A stretch of DNA of 64,000 bases from Escherichia coli (GTDB lineage Bacteria; Pseudomonadota; Gammaproteobacteria; Enterobacterales; Enterobacteriaceae). The notes below the pieces were generated by a model. The model saw only the letters and a program-made list of their open reading frames with translations. It did no database searches and was not told the origin of the DNA. This document shows positions 12,565 to 48,913 of this stretch, piece by piece. How positions within the stretch are numbered: the stretch's first letter is position 1; every line of letters begins with the position of its first letter. The DNA is taken from NCBI RefSeq assembly GCF_003334815.1, contig NZ_QOWO01000014.1. One strand, given 5' to 3'. The position numbers and the translations under genes are program-made.

Positions 12565-13713
12565 TTACCAGGCGGTATGGTAAAGCTCTACAATATCCTC
12601 AAGCGTTGCTTCACGCGGGTTGCCACCGGTACAAACATCATCCAGTGCCGCCTGCGCCAGTGCCGGAATGTCTTCCTTGCGTACACCAACATCACGCAAA
12701 TGTGGCGGAATACCGACATCACGGTTGAGAGCAAACACCGCTTCAACAGCGGCATTACGCGCCTCTTCCAGGCTCATACCTTCCACTTTCACGCCCATAA
12801 CGCGCGCGATATCGCGGTACTTCTCACCGGTAAAGTCAGCGTTATAACGCATGACATGCGGTAACAGGATGGCGTTCGCAACACCGTGTGGAGTGTTATA
12901 AAACGCGCCCAGTGGATGCGCCATACCATGCACCAACCCTAACCCAACATTCGAGAAGCCCATACCCGCAACATACTGCCCGAGCGCCATTTCTTCTCCG
13001 GCATCCTTATCACCAGCAACCGATCCTCGCAGCGCCCCAGCAATGATTTCAATCGCTTTAATGTGCAGTGCATCGGTTAGCGCCCACGCGCCACGGGTAA
13101 TATACCCCTCAATAGCATGAGTGAGCGCATCGACACCCGTCGCAGCTTTCAGCGCTGGAGGCATACCATCCATCATGTCAGCGTCAATAAACGCCACCTG
13201 CGGGATATCATGCGGATCAACGCAAACAAACTTGCGCCGTTTCTCTTCGTCAGTGATCACGTAGTTAATGGTCACTTCTGCCGCAGTACCTGCTGTGGTA
13301 GGAATTGCCAGAATCGGTACACTGGGTTTATTGGTCGGGGAAAGCCCTTCCAGGCTACGCACATCGGCAAACTCCGGGTTGTTGCTGATAATGCCAATCG
13401 CTTTACAAGTATCCTGTGGAGAACCACCACCAATAGCGATCAGGTAATCCGCGCCGCTATTCTGGAATACACCGAGCCCTTCTTTGACGACAGTAATTGT
13501 TGGGTTGGGCACTACGCCGTCGTAAATCGCCCATGCCAGCCCTGCAGCATCCATCTTATCGGTCACTTTCGCCACCACGCCGCATTGCACCAGCGTTTTA
13601 TCGGTGACGATCAGCGCCTTCTGATAACCACGGCGTTTCACCTCATCGGTTAAAGCCCCAACAGCACCCCGACCAAACCATGCCGTTTCGTTCAGAATCA
13701 TTCTGTTAGCCAT
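12565..13713 (-). CDS. fucO: L-1,2-propanediol oxidoreductase (lactaldehyde reductase, Fe-ADH)
   Basis: MANRMILNETAWFGRG...; Fe-alcohol dehydrogenase motifs; second ATG chosen for better SD spacing. Confidence 0.9.
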   Translation of the reverse strand: MANRMILNETAWFGRGAVGALTDEVKRRGYQKALIVTDKTLVQCGVVAKVTDKMDAAGLAWAIYDGVVPNPTITVVKEGLGVFQNSGADYLIAIGGGSPQDTCKAIGIISNNPEFADVRSLEGLSPTNKPSVPILAIPTTAGTAAEVTINYVITDEEKRRKFVCVDPHDIPQVAFIDADMMDGMPPALKAATGVDALTHAIEGYITRGAWALTDALHIKAIEIIAGALRGSVAGDKDAGEEMALGQYVAGMGFSNVGLGLVHGMAHPLGAFYNTPHGVANAILLPHVMRYNADFTGEKYRDIARVMGVKVEGMSLEEARNAAVEAVFALNRDVGIPPHLRDVGVRKEDIPALAQAALDDVCTGGNPREATLEDIVELYHTAW

Positions 13714-13740
13714 CATCCTTCTCCTTGTTGCTTTACGAAA

Positions 13741-14388
13741 TTACTCTTCAATTCGTAACCCATAGGTTTTGAATTTCTCCAGCACTACGGCAATCTCTTC
13801 ATCGCTCAGCACTGGCACCGGGTCCGTAATCGCCAGGGTCGTCAGGTAAAGTTGCGCCAGCACTTCAACTTCATGCGCCAGCCATAACGCTTTTTCCAGA
13901 TTCACCTCACAAGCGATAAGCCCATGATGTTGTAACAAAGTTGCCTTACGATTTTTGAGAGCCAGCGCAACATGTTCAGAAAGTTCGCGTGTTCCAAAGG
14001 TCGCATAAGGCGCGCAAGGAATAGAATTACCGCCAGCCGCCGCAATCATGTAGTGAATAGCGGGGATCGATCGGTTAAGAATGGAAACTGCCGTGCAATG
14101 AACGGCATGATTGTGAACAACCGCGTTGGCATCCGGTCTGCTTTGATAGGCTGCCATATGGAAACGCCATTCGCTTGAGGGGAGCTTTCCTTCCTCATGT
14201 TTACCGTTGCCATCAATAAAGACAATATGCGACTCCGTCAGTTTTTCATATGGAATGCCTGTAGGCGTAATCAGCATCCCATCCTGATAACGTACACTGA
14301 CGTTCCCCGCTGTCCCCTGGTTCAGTCCCAGGCGGGTCATTTCCAGGCAAGTGTCAATAATCTGACGAGCAAGTTTATTTCGTTCCAT
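13741..14388 (-). CDS. fucA: L-fuculose-1-phosphate aldolase (class II)
   Basis: 215-aa ORF MERNKLARQIIDTCLEMTRLGLNQGTAGNVSVRY... Confidence 0.92.
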   Translation of the reverse strand: MERNKLARQIIDTCLEMTRLGLNQGTAGNVSVRYQDGMLITPTGIPYEKLTESHIVFIDGNGKHEEGKLPSSEWRFHMAAYQSRPDANAVVHNHAVHCTAVSILNRSIPAIHYMIAAAGGNSIPCAPYATFGTRELSEHVALALKNRKATLLQHHGLIACEVNLEKALWLAHEVEVLAQLYLTTLAITDPVPVLSDEEIAVVLEKFKTYGLRIEE

Positions 14389-14726
14389 TAGCTACCTCTC
14401 TCTGATTCAAAACAGGGCAATAATGTTGTTCCTTTCACACTATTGAATTAGCCGTTTAATTACCCACCATCTTCTTCCTGATTAACAAGAAAGAAATTCA
14501 CAAGCTTATATTTTGTGACCTGGTTCAACTAATCACAGTAAATAACTGCAAGTTCTCTTTTTATAACCCCATTAAAAATGACCGCTCTTAAAAATATTTA
14601 TCAAAACGGTCATTTTTCTATTCCTCCAAGCCCGGAATGACCGTTTTCGGCACAAACAATTAATACGGTCATCTGATTTGTGTTTTTTATGATTTATTTT
14701 CTGAAACGGGCATGAAATTTCGATTA

Positions 14727-14748
14727 TTAAAGTGATGGTAGTCACATA
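14727..14748. promoter_or_regulatory. CRP-like site aGTGA-N6-TCACA in the fucA/fucP divergent control region
   Basis: Sequence ttaaAGTGATggtagTCACATaaa, one mismatch from TGTGA-N6-TCACA core. Confidence 0.45.
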
Positions 14749-14934
14749 AAGTCACCTTCTAGCTAATAAGTGTGACCGCCGTCATATTACAGAGCGTTTT
14801 TTATTTGAAAATGAATCCATGAGTTCATTTCAGACAGGCAAATATTCACTGATATGAAGCCCGAACTCGCTGGTTTTGCACTTTTGAAAACATAACCGAT
14901 TACGTGCTTAAGCTTCTGAACCTAAGAGGATGCT

Positions 14935-16251
14935 ATGGGAAACACATCAATACAAACGCAGAGTTACCGTGCGGTAGATAAAGATGCAGGGCAAAGCAGA
15001 AGTTACATTATTCCATTCGCGCTGCTGTGCTCACTGTTTTTTCTTTGGGCGGTAGCCAATAACCTTAACGACATTTTATTACCTCAATTCCAGCAGGCTT
15101 TTACGCTGACAAATTTCCAGGCTGGCCTGATCCAATCGGCCTTTTACTTTGGTTATTTCATTATCCCAATCCCTGCTGGGATATTGATGAAAAAACTCAG
15201 TTATAAAGCAGGGATTATTACCGGGTTATTTTTATATGCCTTGGGTGCTGCATTATTCTGGCCCGCCGCAGAAATAATGAACTACACCTTATTTTTAGTT
15301 GGCCTATTTATTATTGCAGCCGGATTAGGTTGTCTGGAAACTGCCGCAAACCCTTTTGTTACGGTATTAGGGCCGGAAAGTAGTGGTCACTTCCGCTTAA
15401 ATCTTGCGCAAACATTTAACTCGTTTGGCGCAATTATCGCGGTTGTCTTTGGGCAAAGTCTTATTTTGTCTAACGTGCCACATCAATCGCAAGACGTTCT
15501 CGATAAAATGTCTCCAGAGCAATTGAGTGCGTATAAACACAGCCTGGTATTATCGGTACAGACACCTTATATGATCATCGTGGCTATCGTGTTACTGGTC
15601 GCCCTGCTGATCATGCTGACGAAATTCCCGGCATTGCAGAGTGATAATCACAGTGACGCCAAACAAGGATCGTTCTCCGCATCGCTTTCTCGCCTGGCGC
15701 GTATTCGCCACTGGCGCTGGGCGGTATTAGCGCAATTCTGCTATGTCGGCGCACAAACGGCCTGCTGGAGCTATTTGATTCGCTACGCTGTAGAAGAAAT
15801 TCCAGGTATGACTGCAGGCTTTGCCGCTAACTATTTAACCGGAACCATGGTGTGCTTCTTTATTGGTCGTTTCACCGGTACCTGGCTCATCAGTCGCTTC
15901 GCACCACACAAAGTCCTGGCCGCCTACGCATTAATCGCTATGGCACTGTGCCTGATCTCAGCCTTCGCTGGCGGTCATGTGGGCTTAATAGCCCTGACTT
16001 TATGCAGCGCCTTTATGTCGATTCAGTACCCAACAATCTTCTCGCTGGGCATTAAGAATCTCGGCCAGGACACCAAATATGGTTCGTCCTTCATCGTTAT
16101 GACCATTATTGGCGGCGGTATTGTCACTCCGGTCATGGGTTTTGTCAGTGACGCGGCGGGCAACATCCCCACTGCTGAACTGATCCCCGCACTCTGCTTC
16201 GCGGTCATCTTTATCTTTGCCCGTTTCCGTTCTCAAACGGCAACTAACTGA
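14935..16251 (+). CDS. fucP: L-fucose:H+ symporter (MFS)
   Basis: 438-aa ORF MGNTSIQTQSYRAVDKDAGQSRSYIIPFALLCSLFFLWAVANNLNDILLPQF... Confidence 0.92.
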   Translation: MGNTSIQTQSYRAVDKDAGQSRSYIIPFALLCSLFFLWAVANNLNDILLPQFQQAFTLTNFQAGLIQSAFYFGYFIIPIPAGILMKKLSYKAGIITGLFLYALGAALFWPAAEIMNYTLFLVGLFIIAAGLGCLETAANPFVTVLGPESSGHFRLNLAQTFNSFGAIIAVVFGQSLILSNVPHQSQDVLDKMSPEQLSAYKHSLVLSVQTPYMIIVAIVLLVALLIMLTKFPALQSDNHSDAKQGSFSASLSRLARIRHWRWAVLAQFCYVGAQTACWSYLIRYAVEEIPGMTAGFAANYLTGTMVCFFIGRFTGTWLISRFAPHKVLAAYALIAMALCLISAFAGGHVGLIALTLCSAFMSIQYPTIFSLGIKNLGQDTKYGSSFIVMTIIGGGIVTPVMGFVSDAAGNIPTAELIPALCFAVIFIFARFRSQTATN

Positions 16252-20067: not shown

Positions 20068-20799
20068 ATGAAAGCGGCACGCCAGCAAGCGATAGTCGAC
20101 CTGCTGCTGAACCATACCAGCCTGACCACGGAAGCTCTCTCTGAACAGCTAAAGGTCAGTAAAGAAACCATTCGTCGCGATCTCAATGAATTACAGACGC
20201 AGGGTAAAATTCTGCGCAATCATGGACGCGCTAAATATATCCACCGTCAAAATCAAGACAGTGGCGATCCCTTTCACATCAGGCTGAAAAGCCATTATGC
20301 GCATAAAGCAGATATCGCGCGCGAGGCGCTCGCGTGGATTGAAGAAGGGATGGTGATAGCCTTAGACGCCAGTTCAACTTGCTGGTATCTGGCACGCCAG
20401 TTGCCTGACATCAACATTCAGGTCTTCACCAATAGCCATCCGATTTGCCATGAACTCGGTAAACGCGAACGCATTCAACTGATCAGTTCCGGCGGCACAC
20501 TTGAGCGCAAATATGGCTGTTACGTCAATCCCTCGCTGATTTCCCAACTTAAATCGCTGGAAATCGATCTGTTTATTTTTTCTTGTGAAGGGATCGATAG
20601 CAGCGGCGCACTGTGGGACTCCAATGCGATCAACGCTGATTACAAATCGATGCTATTAAAACGTGCCGCGCAATCGTTGTTATTGATTGATAAAAGTAAA
20701 TTTAATCGTTCAGGGGAAGCCCGCATCGGGCATCTGGATGAGGTAACGCACATTATTTCTGATGAGCGCCAGGTTGCAACTTCTTTGGTAACAGCCTGA
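20068..20799 (+). CDS. fucR: DeoR-family transcriptional activator of the fucose regulon
   Basis: MKAARQQAIVDLLLNHTSLTTEALSEQLKVSKETIRRDLNEL... (DeoR HTH); the ORF track start at 20059 is an in-frame GTG 3 codons upstream. Confidence 0.87.
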   Translation: MKAARQQAIVDLLLNHTSLTTEALSEQLKVSKETIRRDLNELQTQGKILRNHGRAKYIHRQNQDSGDPFHIRLKSHYAHKADIAREALAWIEEGMVIALDASSTCWYLARQLPDINIQVFTNSHPICHELGKRERIQLISSGGTLERKYGCYVNPSLISQLKSLEIDLFIFSCEGIDSSGALWDSNAINADYKSMLLKRAAQSLLLIDKSKFNRSGEARIGHLDEVTHIISDERQVATSLVTA

Positions 20800-26780: not shown

Positions 26781-27878
26781 TCAGCCGCTAAAGACGTTAC
26801 CTGCGCCCGGGGCGGTTTTCAGCACCCAGACACGTCCATAGTGGTTGTACCAACCTGCGCGGTGTCCGGCTTCCGGCCCGATCCCTTGATAGATATCGAA
26901 GTGTTGGCCTTTGATTGCACCACCGACATCCAGCGCCACCATCAGACGCAGTTCGTACTGACCATTAAATTTGCCGTTATTATCCAGCAACGGCACTTCT
27001 GCCAGCAAGGTAGTACCTGGCGGAATAATGGAACGATCAGAGGCAACTGACGCGCGACCAACCAGCGGCACCGCACTTGCCCCTTTCACCGGAGCAAAAG
27101 ATTGCGGTTTAAAGAAGACGAAAGACGGGTTCTGTTCCAGCAGCTCGCGAACCTCGGCTTCACTGTGTGTTTCGCCCCAGTGACGAATCGCCTGCATCGA
27201 CATATCTTCTTTTTTCACTTCGCCACGGTCGATCAGCACCTTACCAATGCTGCGATAGGCATGACCGTTTTTCCCTGCATAGCTGAAAAAGTTAAGCGGA
27301 CTGCCATCACCAAAGTCGATATACCCACTACCCTGCACATCCATAATGAAGTTATCCATCAGGGAGTTACTGTAAGCGAGAATATATTTATCACTCAATG
27401 CCCCCGCGTAGATCTCCGCACGAGACGGCAGACGACCACGTTTTGGCGGCATACGGTAAATAGGATACTGGAACTCGCCCTGGCGGGTATGGCGCGCCTG
27501 AATTACCGGCGTGTAATAACCGGTAAACTGCACGTTACCATAGTTGTCGGCACCTTCCATCTGCCAGGCATCAATGCCGAACTGGCGCATATTGCGGGTA
27601 TCACCGCCTGCGCGCAGCCACTCTTGCACCGCGTTATAAACATTACTCTGGTTGCCATACAGACGCGGTGACGAATTACGGATATGGTTAATTTGCTCGG
27701 CAAAATCACCGGCGTTAATCGGCGCGCCAACGGCATCTGGCTGGTTCACCAGAGAGAAAGGCTGGGTAAATTTCCCGTCTTTATATTGCTGTCCGCGATC
27801 GGTTGGTTTGGAAGAGCAGGCGGCAAGCATTGCCACAACCGTGCCCATAAGAAGGTACTTTACCCAACGTCCTTTCAT
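26781..27878 (-). CDS. mltA: Membrane-bound lytic murein transglycosylase A (lipoprotein)
   Basis: Product starts MKGRWVKYLLMGTVVAMLAACSS (lipobox) at ATG 27878; the ORF track 433-aa version is a spurious 68-codon upstream extension. Confidence 0.87.
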   Translation of the reverse strand: MKGRWVKYLLMGTVVAMLAACSSKPTDRGQQYKDGKFTQPFSLVNQPDAVGAPINAGDFAEQINHIRNSSPRLYGNQSNVYNAVQEWLRAGGDTRNMRQFGIDAWQMEGADNYGNVQFTGYYTPVIQARHTRQGEFQYPIYRMPPKRGRLPSRAEIYAGALSDKYILAYSNSLMDNFIMDVQGSGYIDFGDGSPLNFFSYAGKNGHAYRSIGKVLIDRGEVKKEDMSMQAIRHWGETHSEAEVRELLEQNPSFVFFKPQSFAPVKGASAVPLVGRASVASDRSIIPPGTTLLAEVPLLDNNGKFNGQYELRLMVALDVGGAIKGQHFDIYQGIGPEAGHRAGWYNHYGRVWVLKTAPGAGNVFSG

Positions 27879-46666: not shown

Positions 46667-48913
46667 CTATAACCCTCCGCGAATCAGCCCGCCCATGCCG
46701 CGACGCTCCATAAAGGCTGCAACCTGATGGCGAACTTCGGTCGCCAGTTGCGCTTCCAGACTACGCTGCGCAAGATTTTCTGCTTCGGCATAATCAATGC
46801 GCCGCAGCAGGTATTTTGCCCGCGCTACAGAACGTCCGTTCATAGACAGATGGCGATACCCAAGCCCAATGAGGATTGCCACGCACATGGGATCGCCCGC
46901 CATTTCACCGCACAAACGGAGATCGATTCCATGTATTTCCGCTTCCCGGGCGATCATCGCCAGAGCTCGTAACATTGCAGGATGAAGACTGTCATAAATG
47001 TTCGCCACCCGGGTATTGTTGCGATCAACGGCCAGAATGTATTGAGTCAGATCGTTGGTGCCAACAGAGATGAAATCGACCCGCTTTGCCAGATGCGGCA
47101 GCATAAATACCATTGACGGCACTTCCAGCATGATGCCGATACGTGGTTTGGGAATTTCGTAACCGATCATCTCCTCGACTTCACGTCCGGCACGTTCAAT
47201 CAGGCGGCGTGCTTCATCAACTTCATCGAGGCTTGTGACCATCGGCAACAGAATATTCAGGTTGCCCGTAGCGGCATTAGCACGCAGCATCGCCCGCACC
47301 TGGATCAAGAAGATCTCCGGCTGATCGAGCGTAATGCGAATCCCACGCCAACCCAGGCATGGATTCTCTTCGCTGATCGGCATGTAAGGCAGCTGCTTAT
47401 CTGCTCCGACATCCAGCGTACGCAAGGTGACGGGTTTATCATTGAACATTTGCAGCATCCCCTGATACTGCGCCACCTGTTCTTCTTCCGACGGGAAACC
47501 ACTTTGCAGCATGAATGGGATTTCAGTGCGATAAAGACCGATGCCATCAATACGGCTGCCCAGTTTTTCTTCATGTTCCGGGCTTAAACCAGCATTGAGC
47601 ATGACTTTTATACGCTCACCGCTTTTTAACTGCGCGGGTAAATTGACGTCATCTTCCGCCAGACGGCTAAGCTCAATCTCTTCACTAATTAGCCGCTGAT
47701 ATTCTTGCAGCAGTACCGGCTCCGGATCGACCAGCAATTCACCGCGATAGCCATCAACGATCAGCGTCCTACGATGCAGCACCGAAGGCTGAATATCCGC
47801 GCCCATCACGGTAGGGATCCCCAGCGCACGTACCATGATCGCAGCATGGGAGTTGGCTGCGCCATCTCGCACGACAACACCGACTAAGCGATCCTGGGGC
47901 AGCTCAGCAAGCGTTGTCGCTGACAGTTCATCTGCCACCAGAATGAAACGTTCCGGCCAGGCGTTCGGCCCTTGATTAGCGTCATCAAGATGAAACAGCA
48001 ATCGCTGACCCAGCGCACGTAAATCGCCAGCCCGCTCTTTGAGATAGTTATCACTTAGCGCGGCAAACTGTTCGGCAAATTTTTCAATGACCGTTTTTAC
48101 CGCCCACTCTGCCACCGAGCCTTTATCAACCTCGGCAAACAATTCGCGACGCAGCCGGGTGTCCGAAAGCAGGTGCGAGTAAAGATCGAAAATAGCCGCC
48201 GTTTCTTTTTGTGCACCGGCGGCAAAGCGTTTGCTGTAGCGGCGAAACTCGTTTGCCGCTTCTTCCAGCGCCCCGGTCAGTCGTTCGCGTTCCAGAGCCG
48301 GATCCAGCGTTGATGCCTGATACACCTGTTCCATTAAAGGTAACGTGGCATCCTGCCAGCCTTCGGCAATCGCCACACCAGGTGCTGCCGGTAATGCGCG
48401 GATTCGCGTCTGGCGATATTGCCCAAACAAGGCAGTCAACTGCGACTGAGAAAGAATAGCTGCCATCTGGGTGGCAAGCGTCACCAGGAAGGATTCTTCA
48501 CTTTCGTCATACTGGCGCAACTCTCGTTGCTGTACCACCAGTACACCAAGCAACTGGCGACGTTGAATAATTGGTACGCCTAAAAACGCGCGGAAACGTT
48601 CTTCTTTTACGGAGGGGATGTATTTGAAGCTGGGGTGCTTTTGCGCATCTGCAAGGTTTATCGGTTCCGCCAGCCTGCCAACCAGGCCGACGATCCCTTC
48701 ATCAAACGCGAGCGTTACAGTGCGACCGCGTGGTTTTTTCAGCCCCCGGGTCGCCATCAGGTAGTAACAACGTCGATCATGATCGGCCAGGTAGACCGAA
48801 CAGACCTCGGTATCCATCGCAAGACAGATGTCGGTAACCAGAATATTTAACGCCTCATTCAGGCGTGGTGCGCTGGCTACCTTTTCGACTATTTCGCGCA
48901 GGCGAGTGAGCAT
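46667..48913 (-). CDS. ptsP: PEP-protein phosphotransferase enzyme I-Ntr (GAF domain plus EI)
   Basis: 748-aa ORF; N-terminal GAF-like region followed by EI PEP-utilising domains. Confidence 0.92.
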   Translation of the reverse strand: MLTRLREIVEKVASAPRLNEALNILVTDICLAMDTEVCSVYLADHDRRCYYLMATRGLKKPRGRTVTLAFDEGIVGLVGRLAEPINLADAQKHPSFKYIPSVKEERFRAFLGVPIIQRRQLLGVLVVQQRELRQYDESEESFLVTLATQMAAILSQSQLTALFGQYRQTRIRALPAAPGVAIAEGWQDATLPLMEQVYQASTLDPALERERLTGALEEAANEFRRYSKRFAAGAQKETAAIFDLYSHLLSDTRLRRELFAEVDKGSVAEWAVKTVIEKFAEQFAALSDNYLKERAGDLRALGQRLLFHLDDANQGPNAWPERFILVADELSATTLAELPQDRLVGVVVRDGAANSHAAIMVRALGIPTVMGADIQPSVLHRRTLIVDGYRGELLVDPEPVLLQEYQRLISEEIELSRLAEDDVNLPAQLKSGERIKVMLNAGLSPEHEEKLGSRIDGIGLYRTEIPFMLQSGFPSEEEQVAQYQGMLQMFNDKPVTLRTLDVGADKQLPYMPISEENPCLGWRGIRITLDQPEIFLIQVRAMLRANAATGNLNILLPMVTSLDEVDEARRLIERAGREVEEMIGYEIPKPRIGIMLEVPSMVFMLPHLAKRVDFISVGTNDLTQYILAVDRNNTRVANIYDSLHPAMLRALAMIAREAEIHGIDLRLCGEMAGDPMCVAILIGLGYRHLSMNGRSVARAKYLLRRIDYAEAENLAQRSLEAQLATEVRHQVAAFMERRGMGGLIRGGL

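What the first reader, a model, noticed from the sequence alone, without database searches (positions are those of the whole stretch)
14570..14680. Duplicated inverted-repeat module ATGACCG-N22-CGGTCAT in the fucAO/fucPIK divergent control region
Two copies of the same architecture sit 59 bp apart: ATGACCG (14578..14584) and CGGTCAT (14607..14613), then ATGACCG (14637..14643) and CGGTCAT (14666..14672), each with a 22-bp spacer. A related TGACCGccGTCA palindrome lies at 14773..14784 and a good CRP site at 14727..14748. The repeated half-site is a natural candidate operator for the DeoR-family activator FucR encoded in the same window. I do not remember the experimentally defined FucR site, so this is inference from repetition.
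Basis: partly seen in the sequence, partly recalled or inferred. Interest (0 to 1): 0.4.

Follow-up and report, generated by a model that had tools for sequence, protein, structure and literature searches.

The report
Paired FucR operator boxes, largely known
The repeated ATGACCG/CGGTCAT heptamers are real and are the DNA boxes bound by the fucose activator FucR between the E. coli fucAO and fucPIK operons. The motif and two of the four boxes were already published, so the finding is correct but mostly ordinary. The strictly conserved pairing of the boxes is a modest new detail.

Summary
ATGACCG-N22-CGGTCAT occurs at 14578-14613 and 14637-14672, against 0.01 matches expected per window. The window is the E. 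coli fuc locus.

A DAP-seq FucR motif (..AAAACGGTCATT) exists. The two left arms are the published, mutationally validated operators OFucR3 (14577-14591) and OFucR2 (14636-14650).

The "related palindrome" at 14773-14784 is not FucR-related. It is the core of the published CRP site OCrp0.

In 35 fucA-fucP intergenic regions from about 12 enterobacterial genera, all four boxes are conserved as AAACGGNCAT, about as strongly as the CRP sites. I also found:
- a fifth canonical box (14700-14714);
- a conserved non-canonical box (14678-14687).

The 22-bp AT-rich spacer inside each pair is almost invariant, while the linker between the pairs floats from 12 to 23 bp. This splits the region into two rigid, mirror-image blocks: CRP2-A-B for fucAO, and C-D-E-CRP1-CRP0 for fucPIK.

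Against obligatory pairing, a published truncation that keeps only box A retains about 70% of induction.

Verdict: a known kind of element at a known locus. The paired architecture and boxes B and E are small additions. Interest is low.

The parts
14577..14591 (-). FucR box A (core CGGTCAT = 14578-14584 read on the minus strand). This is the published operator OFucR3, the fucAO-proximal arm of module 1.
   Evidence: The reverse complement equals the published ttaagagCGGtCAtt, and its mutation gives a >50-fold loss of induced PfucAO. PWM score 18.6. Mean conservation 1.40 bits per column.
14600..14614 (+). FucR box B (atcaaaaCGGTCATt), the inverted partner of A. I did not find it named in the papers I could read.
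   Evidence: It is the best PWM match in the whole window, at 24.7. Conservation is 1.72 bits per column. The A-B spacer is 22 nt in 30 of 35 loci and 23 nt in 5.
14636..14650 (-). FucR box C, the published operator OFucR2 and the left arm of module 2.
   Evidence: The reverse complement equals the published ccgaaaaCGGtCAtt, and its mutation gives about a 30% loss. PWM 17.1. 1.74 bits per column. The N position is polymorphic within Escherichia.
14659..14673 (+). FucR box D (attaataCGGTCATc), the inverted partner of C. It points toward fucPIK.
   Evidence: PWM 17.5. 1.62 bits per column. The C-D spacer is 22 nt in 34 of 35 loci. It lies outside the -270 fragment that has full PfucAO activity, so it is not needed for fucAO.
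14700..14714 (+). FucR box E (tctgaaaCGGGCATg, core 14707-14713), a fifth canonical box 18 nt upstream of the CRP site OCrp1.
   Evidence: The consensus of 35 loci is CtcAAACGGtCAT at 1.73 bits per column. The E-to-CRP1 spacing is fixed at 18 nt in 34 of 35 loci. PWM 14.0.
14678..14687 (.). Box E', a conserved non-canonical element (E. coli TTGTGTTTTT; consensus cTGTGGgTTT). It sits where an inverted partner of E would lie, 22-23 nt from E.
   Evidence: 1.45 bits per column, with the register shown. It lacks the CCG of canonical boxes in every species examined. Its function is unexplained.
14511..14532 (-). CRP site OCrp2, essential for PfucAO. It is rigidly spaced from box A.
   Evidence: The published sequence is ttagtTGAaccaggTCACAaaa. 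The spacing to A is 47 or 48 nt in all 35 loci.
14728..14749 (.). CRP site OCrp1.
   Evidence: GTGA-N6-TCACA is conserved in all loci. It is published as one of two CRP sites for fucPIK.
14768..14789 (.). CRP site OCrp0.
   Evidence: The published sequence taaTaTGAcggcggTCACActt is the reverse complement of this stretch. The conserved part is TGTGAC....TCATATT, and the inner bases vary.
14759..14762 (.). CTAG target of the IS5 insertion that activates fucAO and silences fucPIK. The insertion separates all FucR boxes and OCrp1 from the fucPIK core promoter.
   Evidence: The published position is -374 to -371 from the fucA start. This maps to 14759-14762.
20068..20799 (+). fucR, the DeoR-family activator that binds the boxes.
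   Evidence: It is annotated as the L-fucose operon activator. Pfam finds HTH_DeoR at residues 5-60 and DeoRC at 76-233.

Best explanation
The four heptamers are the cores of four binding boxes (about 10 bp each, AAACGGNCAT) for FucR, the DeoR-family activator encoded at 20068-20799. FucR becomes DNA-binding when it is loaded with fuculose-1-phosphate. The four boxes belong to a conserved array of five canonical boxes plus one degenerate box between the divergent fucAO and fucPIKUR promoters. Bound FucR acts from far upstream together with CRP, and the published view is that it helps CRP occupy its adjacent site, which then recruits RNA polymerase.

The following part is inferred, at roughly 50% likelihood. 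Each inverted pair (A/B and C/D), with its fixed 22-bp AT-rich spacer, is the docking unit of one FucR oligomer whose two helix-turn-helix domains sit about 29 bp apart. The region is built from two mirror-image rigid blocks. CRP2-A-B serves PfucAO. C-D-E-CRP1-CRP0 serves PfucPIK. In each block the promoter-proximal arm (A, and D plus E) does most of the activating, and the distal arm adds affinity or cooperativity.
For: Shown in the literature:
- The FucR DAP-seq consensus and the operators OFucR2/OFucR3 coincide with boxes C and A, and mutagenesis supports both.
- The 2025 paper speaks of four FucR operators, OR0-OR3, all on the fucA side of the IS5 site.
- IS5 at 14759-62 cuts every box off from PfucPIK, and fucPIK is silenced (paper title).

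Shown here:
- Boxes B, A, D and C are the four best PWM matches in 64 kb, and E is sixth.
- In 35 fucA-fucP regions, matches of at least 12 bits are about 380 times denser inside the intergenic region than in the 673 kb around it. The counts are 167 against 14. This is partly circular, because the PWM was trained on those sites.
- Each box is a conservation island of 1.4-1.74 bits per column. CRP sites score 1.3-1.5 and spacers 0.2-0.9.

Support for the pairing:
- The A-B spacer is 22 nt (30 loci) or 23 nt (5 loci). The C-D spacer is 22 nt in 34 loci and 23 nt in one. The B-C linker ranges from 12 to 23 nt.
- TG.CCG-N22/23-CGG.CA occurs 66 times in the 35 intergenic regions, and no other spacer from 16 to 29 nt occurs there at all.
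- Intramodule spacers average 81-83% A+T, against 61% for the whole region.
- Within Escherichia, polymorphisms pile up in the B-C linker, while the boxes and intramodule spacers are invariant.

Mirror geometry:
- The centre of A lies 59.5 bp from the centre of CRP2. The centre of D lies 69.5 bp from the centre of CRP1. The two distances differ by one helical turn, and both arms point at their own promoter (coordinates).
Against: - The published -206 truncation ends at window 14594, so it keeps box A but removes B, C, D and E. It still gives about 70% of induced PfucAO activity. B is therefore not required for most fucAO activation in that reporter, and pairing is not obligatory.
- I found no accessible direct binding data for B, D or E. 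The identity of the 'putative' operators OR0 and OR1 could not be read, because it is given only in a figure.
- The core centres are 29 bp apart, which is 2.76 helical turns, so the two arms are not on one face of straight B-DNA.
- The oligomeric state of FucR is unknown to me. No solved homologue was found by sequence.
- In E. coli the most perfect inverted repeat is B/C, not A/B or C/D.
- About 14 Citrobacter-type loci keep a FucR with the same recognition-helix sequence but have no box array upstream of fucI.
Confidence: 0.85

Rival explanations
1. Independent, direction-specific boxes. Each box binds FucR on its own. Minus-strand boxes (A, C) serve PfucAO and plus-strand boxes (B, D, E) serve PfucPIK. 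The apparent inverted-repeat modules would then be just two interleaved directional sets.
For: Box A alone supports about 70% of PfucAO induction. The published DAP-seq motif is an asymmetric 15-mer, not a dyad. Both published fucAO operators are minus-strand boxes. D is dispensable for PfucAO.
Against: Under this model C should keep a fixed distance to A and CRP2, and B a fixed distance to D, E and CRP1. Those are exactly the distances that vary, because the B-C linker ranges from 12 to 23 nt. The opposite-strand neighbours A-B and C-D are locked at 22 nt.
Confidence: 0.25
2. The functional dyad is B/C, with 12-nt perfect arms (AAAACGGTCATT / AATGACCGTTTT) and 21 nt between them. A and D would be auxiliary flanking sites.
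For: the repeat finder reports B/C as the only 100% complementary long inverted repeat in the region.
Against: The B-C spacing is the only strongly variable distance in the array, at 12-23 nt across 35 loci, and it is the polymorphism hot spot within E. coli. Arm identity is not maintained, because the N base and the flanks differ between B and C in most species.
Confidence: 0.08
3. The inverted repeats act through nucleic-acid structure, as a cruciform or as an RNA/DNA hairpin, rather than as protein-binding boxes.
For: The region folds better than shuffles as single-stranded DNA (-15.9 kcal/mol, z = -3.8). This follows trivially from the repeats themselves.
Against: The arms do not covary. 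The variable fourth base is the same in both arms in only 16 of 35 loci for A/B and 18 of 35 for C/D, and the seventh base in 19 and 10 of 35. The loops would be 22 nt of unconserved AT-rich sequence. No terminator-like or promoter-like signal was found. The boxes match an experimentally derived protein motif.
Confidence: 0.02

Closest known systems
Published E. coli FucR operators OFucR2/OFucR3 and the DAP-seq FucR motif (Baumgart 2021, as quoted in Zhang et al. 2024, PMC11011485; OR0-OR3 in PMC11894529)
   Same: It is the same locus, the same protein and the same motif. Boxes C and A are these operators base for base. The 2025 paper already counts four FucR sites on this side of the IS5 target.
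   Different: The papers I could read treat the sites as separate 15-mers. I found no mention of inverted partners, the fixed 22-bp spacer, box B, the mirror-image block structure or cross-genus conservation. I could not see the figure that places OR0 and OR1.
Operator architectures of other DeoR-family regulators: DeoR 16-bp palindromes with looping and GlpR tandem 10-bp half-sites (both from my own knowledge), and DeoR-family RhaR motifs of two direct repeats with 10-11 bp periodicity (PMC3870299)
   Same: The DNA-binding domain family is the same: HTH_DeoR plus the DeoRC sensor domain. Multiple short boxes are recognised per promoter, the effector is a sugar phosphate, and the regulator cooperates with CRP.
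   Different: FucR boxes are asymmetric. They are paired in inverted orientation at about 29 bp centre to centre, not as a compact palindrome or as 10-11-bp tandem repeats. FucR is an activator acting from roughly -130 and further upstream, not a repressor overlapping the promoter.
Divergent CRP-plus-specific-activator control regions, such as malEp-malKp with MalT boxes and CRP sites (from my own knowledge)
   Same: There are two divergent activator-dependent promoters with no good sigma-70 consensus. An array of specific-activator boxes is interspersed with several CRP sites at fixed spacing, which suggests a higher-order nucleoprotein complex.
   Different: The activator family is different. 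Here the array splits into two spacing-independent blocks joined by a variable linker, which argues for two complexes rather than one.

Membership tests
FucR operator (DeoR-family activator box) | Match to the experimentally derived FucR consensus ..A A A CGG T/G CA T.. | tested here: met
   All four boxes and box E carry CGGNCAT preceded by an A-rich tract, compared with the consensus quoted. They rank 1-4 and 6 by PWM in the window.
FucR operator (DeoR-family activator box) | Location in the control region of FucR-dependent operons, next to a fucR gene | tested here: met
   The region is the fucA-fucP intergenic region, with fucR 5.4 kb downstream.
FucR operator (DeoR-family activator box) | Conservation in orthologous control regions of genomes that encode FucR | tested here: met
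   35 loci from about 12 genera, with FucR identity of 60% (a frameshifted C. koseri copy) and otherwise 67-98%. Boxes score 1.4-1.74 bits per column and spacers 0.2-0.9.
FucR operator (DeoR-family activator box) | Loss of FucR-dependent induction when the box is mutated | not testable with these tools
   This is published for A (>50-fold) and C (about 30%) in PMC11011485. I found no accessible data for B, D or E. The -206 truncation suggests that B, C, D and E together contribute only about 30% to PfucAO.
FucR operator (DeoR-family activator box) | Direct binding by purified FucR with fuculose-1-phosphate (footprint or EMSA) | not testable with these tools
   Only DAP-seq is reported, as quoted. 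The primary paper is not held in the library.
CRP site (applies to the 14773-14784 palindrome and to 14727-14748) | TGTGA-N6-TCACA dyad, with conservation confined to the two pentamers and their flanks | tested here: met
   14771-14786 reads TGTGA-ccgccg-TCATA, and across 35 loci the consensus is TGTGAC....TCATATT. It is published as OCrp0. 14732-14746 reads GTGA-N6-TCACA, is invariant, and is published as OCrp1.
FucR box (applies to the 14773-14784 palindrome) | Conserved CGG..CA in either arm | tested here: not met
   The right arm is CCATCAT or TTATCAT in most species, and the G of the left-arm TGACCG varies. No PWM hit of 8 bits or more falls there.
Classical DeoR-family operator architecture (compact palindrome, or 10-11-bp tandem repeats) | Two half-sites within about 20 bp, in dyad or tandem arrangement | tested here: not met
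   The boxes are asymmetric and the nearest partner is 29 bp away, centre to centre, in inverted orientation. There is no conserved second repeat 10-11 bp from any box.
Structured nucleic-acid element (hairpin or cruciform) | Compensatory covariation between the arms | tested here: not met
   The variable positions of partner arms agree in only 10-19 of 35 loci.

The most novel reading that the evidence does not exclude
FucR recognises a long bipartite operator: two inverted 10-bp boxes held exactly 22 bp apart (core to core) by an AT-rich, presumably bent or wrapped, spacer. The fuc control region is two mirror-image, spacing-independent nucleoprotein blocks, one per divergent promoter. This predicts that boxes D and E, not the published OFucR2, drive fucPIK. 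It also predicts that box B, the best-matching box and one not named in the texts I could read, stabilises FucR on the essential box A at physiological FucR levels. This would be an operator geometry not described for the DeoR family.
Probability: 0.45. Interest if true: 0.35.

Novelty: already known. Interest (0 to 1): 0.22.

Why it matters
L-fucose use matters for gut colonisation by E. coli and its relatives. The fucAO/fucPIK region is also a classic model for IS5-mediated operon activation. The finding does not change that picture, because the motif and the key operators are already published. The comparative analysis adds three things. It gives a cleaner parts list: five canonical boxes, one odd conserved box and four CRP sites, all at fixed spacing except for one linker. 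It gives a testable assignment of boxes to promoters. It also gives an unusual long-spacer pairing for a DeoR-family activator, which could guide footprinting, reporter design and fucose-biosensor engineering.

Tried and rejected
1. Hairpin or cruciform reading. The fold looks significant, but the arms do not covary, so I rejected it.
2. The 14773-14784 palindrome as a third FucR module. It is the published CRP site OCrp0, and its conservation pattern is CRP-like, so I rejected this.
3. B/C as the real dyad. It is perfect in E. coli, but its spacing is the only variable one, so it is disfavoured.
4. Box E' as the SrsR site. The SrsR box is gCtGgTTTTGC at 14869-14879, so this is rejected.
5. 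FucR boxes elsewhere in the window. The isolated matches at 48083-48102 and 27257-27276 lie inside long ORFs. I treated them as chance.
6. The 17 FucR loci without an adjacent fucA-fucP pair as independent tests. They have no box clusters although the recognition helix is unchanged. This is uninformative for the pairing model and mildly awkward for universality.
7. Locating the 'putative' operators OR0 and OR1. The main text and supplements of PMC11894529 give no sequences.
8. Reading the older and primary papers. Podolny 1999, Zhang 2010 and Baumgart 2021 are not held in the library.
9. A solved structure to judge the distance between the two helix-turn-helix domains. None was found by sequence.
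10. The simple promoter and terminator scan found nothing in the intergenic region.

Full report
**Observation**

The window is the E. coli fuc locus. The layout is:
- fucO 12565-13716 (-)
- fucA 13741-14388 (-)
- a 546-bp intergenic region
- fucP 14935-16251 (+), followed by fucI, fucK and fucU
- fucR 20068-20799 (+)

ATGACCG-N22-CGGTCAT matches only at 14578-14613 and 14637-14672 in 64 kb, with 0.01 matches expected by chance. The repeat finder recovers the same copies.

**What is already known**

Zhang et al. 2024 (PMC11011485) quote a DAP-seq FucR consensus, G(A)C(T)C(G)A(C)A(G)A(TC)A(T)CGGT(G)CAT(A)T(CG). They define two operators:
- OFucR2, ccgaaaaCGGtCAtt
- OFucR3, ttaagagCGGtCAtt

These are the reverse complements of window 14636-14650 and 14577-14591, which are the two left arms. 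Mutating OFucR3 lowers fucose-induced PfucAO more than 50-fold, and mutating OFucR2 lowers it by about 30%.

The 2025 NAR paper (PMC11894529) speaks of four FucR operators. OR2 and OR3 serve fucAO, and 'putative' OR0 and OR1 serve fucPIKR. All lie on the fucA side of the IS5 target CTAG, which maps to 14759-14762. Their sequences are not given in the text or supplements.

The same paper gives the CRP site OCrp0 as taaTaTGAcggcggTCACActt. The site at 14728-14749 is OCrp1. OCrp2 is 14511-14532 and OCrp3 is 14421-14442.

**Comparative test**

A scan of one genome per species, using FucR as the query, returned 52 loci from Enterobacterales. Of these, 35 have divergent fucA and fucP genes. They include E. 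coli itself, three other Escherichia, and about a dozen further genera reaching as far as Rahnella and Edwardsiella.

In a MAFFT alignment, the four boxes stand out as AAACGGNCAT, with N = T, G or A. A fifth canonical box, E (window 14700-14714, core CGGGCAT at 14707-13), also stands out.

Conservation per column:

| Element | Bits per column |
|---|---|
| Box A | 1.40 |
| Box B | 1.72 |
| Box C | 1.74 |
| Box D | 1.62 |
| Box E | 1.73 |
| CRP sites | 1.3-1.5 |
| Spacers | 0.2-0.9 |

A PWM built from these sites ranks B, A, D and C as the four best matches in the whole window, with E sixth. Matches of at least 12 bits number 167 inside the 35 intergenic regions and 14 in the surrounding 673 kb. 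This comparison is partly circular, because the PWM was trained on those sites.

A sixth conserved island, E' (14678-14687, consensus cTGTGGgTTT), sits exactly where an inverted partner of E would lie. It lacks the CCG of canonical boxes in every species. I cannot explain it.

**Architecture**

Spacings across the 35 loci:

| Interval | Spacing (nt) |
|---|---|
| CRP2 to A | 47 or 48 |
| A to B | 22 (30 loci), 23 (5 loci) |
| B to C | 12-23 (mode 20) |
| C to D | 22 (34 loci), 23 (1 locus) |
| D to E | 34 (30 loci), 35 (4 loci), 31 (1 locus) |
| E to CRP1 | 18 (34 loci) |
| CRP1 to CRP0 | 38 or 39 |

The array is therefore two rigid blocks, CRP2-A-B and C-D-E-CRP1-CRP0, joined by one floating linker.

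Further observations point the same way:
- TG.CCG-N22/23-CGG.CA occurs 66 times in the intergenic regions. No other spacer from 16 to 29 nt occurs there. The 13 matches elsewhere are GC-rich coding coincidences.
- Intramodule spacers average 81-83% A+T, against 61% for the whole region.
- Within Escherichia, polymorphisms concentrate in the B-C linker and at the N position of box C. The boxes and intramodule spacers are invariant.
- The two modules are mirror images. The centre of A is 59.5 bp from the centre of CRP2, and the centre of D is 69.5 bp from the centre of CRP1. Each arm points toward its own promoter.

**Mechanism**

Shown:
- FucR is a protein with HTH_DeoR and DeoRC domains.
- Boxes A and C are needed for FucR-dependent activation of PfucAO, and this activation also requires CRP at OCrp2.

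Inferred:
- B, D and E are also FucR boxes. The support is the motif match and the conservation.
- Each inverted pair is the docking unit of one FucR oligomer. The support is the locked 22-bp spacer set against the floating linker.
- Block 1 serves fucAO and block 2 serves fucPIK. This fits the fact that IS5 at 14759-62 silences fucPIK by cutting it off from everything upstream.

**Main counter-evidence to obligatory pairing**

The published -206 truncation ends at window 14594. It retains only box A, yet it keeps about 70% of induced activity. The core centres are 2.76 helical turns apart, so straight DNA would not present both arms on one face. I found no solved homologue to model the geometry.

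**Rival explanations**
- An interleaved directional-sets model is disfavoured. The distances it needs to be fixed (A-C and B-D) are the variable ones.
- B/C as the true dyad is perfect in E. coli but is not spacing-conserved.
- A hairpin or cruciform is rejected because the arms do not covary, despite a trivially good fold.

**Comparison and novelty**

The element is the published FucR operator set. The motif, the locus and two of the four boxes are known, and two further 'putative' sites are mentioned in print.

Compared with other DeoR-family operators, the geometry is unusual. Those include compact palindromes and 10-bp tandem half-sites (from my own knowledge), and RhaR direct repeats with 10-11-bp periodicity (PMC3870299). 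The FucR boxes are instead paired in inverted orientation at about 29 bp, with an AT-rich spacer. I did not find this described, but I could not read the primary DAP-seq paper or the older fucPIK promoter papers.

I rate the finding as already known. Interest is low, at about 0.2. There is a moderately interesting, testable architectural hypothesis as the upside.

Noticed in passing
window 14678-14687: Box E' is a conserved island (consensus cTGTGGgTTT, 1.45 bits per column). It sits exactly 22-23 nt from box E, in the register of an inverted partner, but it never carries the canonical CCG. It could be a weak FucR half-site or a site for another factor.
   Followed up: partly
L014 5707-6156 (also L015, L036, L039 and about 10 other Citrobacter-type loci): In these loci fucP is replaced by a minus-strand ABC-transporter operon between fucA and fucI. 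The intergenic region between that operon and fucI has no FucR box array. Instead it carries two copies of a perfect 16-bp palindrome, GCTAACTCGAGTTAGC, about 240 bp apart. The FucR recognition helix (VSKETIRRDL) is unchanged there.
   Followed up: partly
L054 (E. coli EC25); window 14868-14876: IS1A is inserted in the fucP 5'UTR with a 9-bp target duplication, CGCTGGTTT. This falls inside the published SrsR box (14869-14879).
   Followed up: yes
L055 (E. coli strain E3); break after window 14635: IS1B is inserted immediately before box C. The rest of the control region (C, D, E, both fucPIK CRP sites and the promoter) is deleted up to a shortened fucP. This looks like a natural mutant that should have lost normal fucPIK control.
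   Followed up: partly
L017, L030, L031, L047: These loci have fucR homologues (66-86% identity) with no fucI, fucK, fucU, fucA or fucP within 10 kb, and no FucR box cluster. They may be orphan or re-deployed regulators.
   Followed up: no
L051 (Citrobacter koseri NCTC10786): fucA, fucP, fucI, fucR and rlmM each align in two pieces or with a frame change. Either the locus is pseudogenised or the assembly has indel errors. The five boxes are intact.
   Followed up: no
window 14451 versus 14511-14532: By my arithmetic, the published PfucAO transcription start (63 nt upstream of the fucA ATG, which maps to 14451) puts the centre of OCrp2 at -70.5. [quoted passage not shown]
   Followed up: no
window 48083-48102 and 27257-27276 (minus strand): Two isolated good FucR-PWM matches (15.8 and 13.6 bits) lie inside long ORFs, with no partner box. 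They are probably chance. ATGACCG is over-represented across the whole window (20 copies against 8.2 expected), and most copies lie outside the fuc intergenic region.
   Followed up: partly
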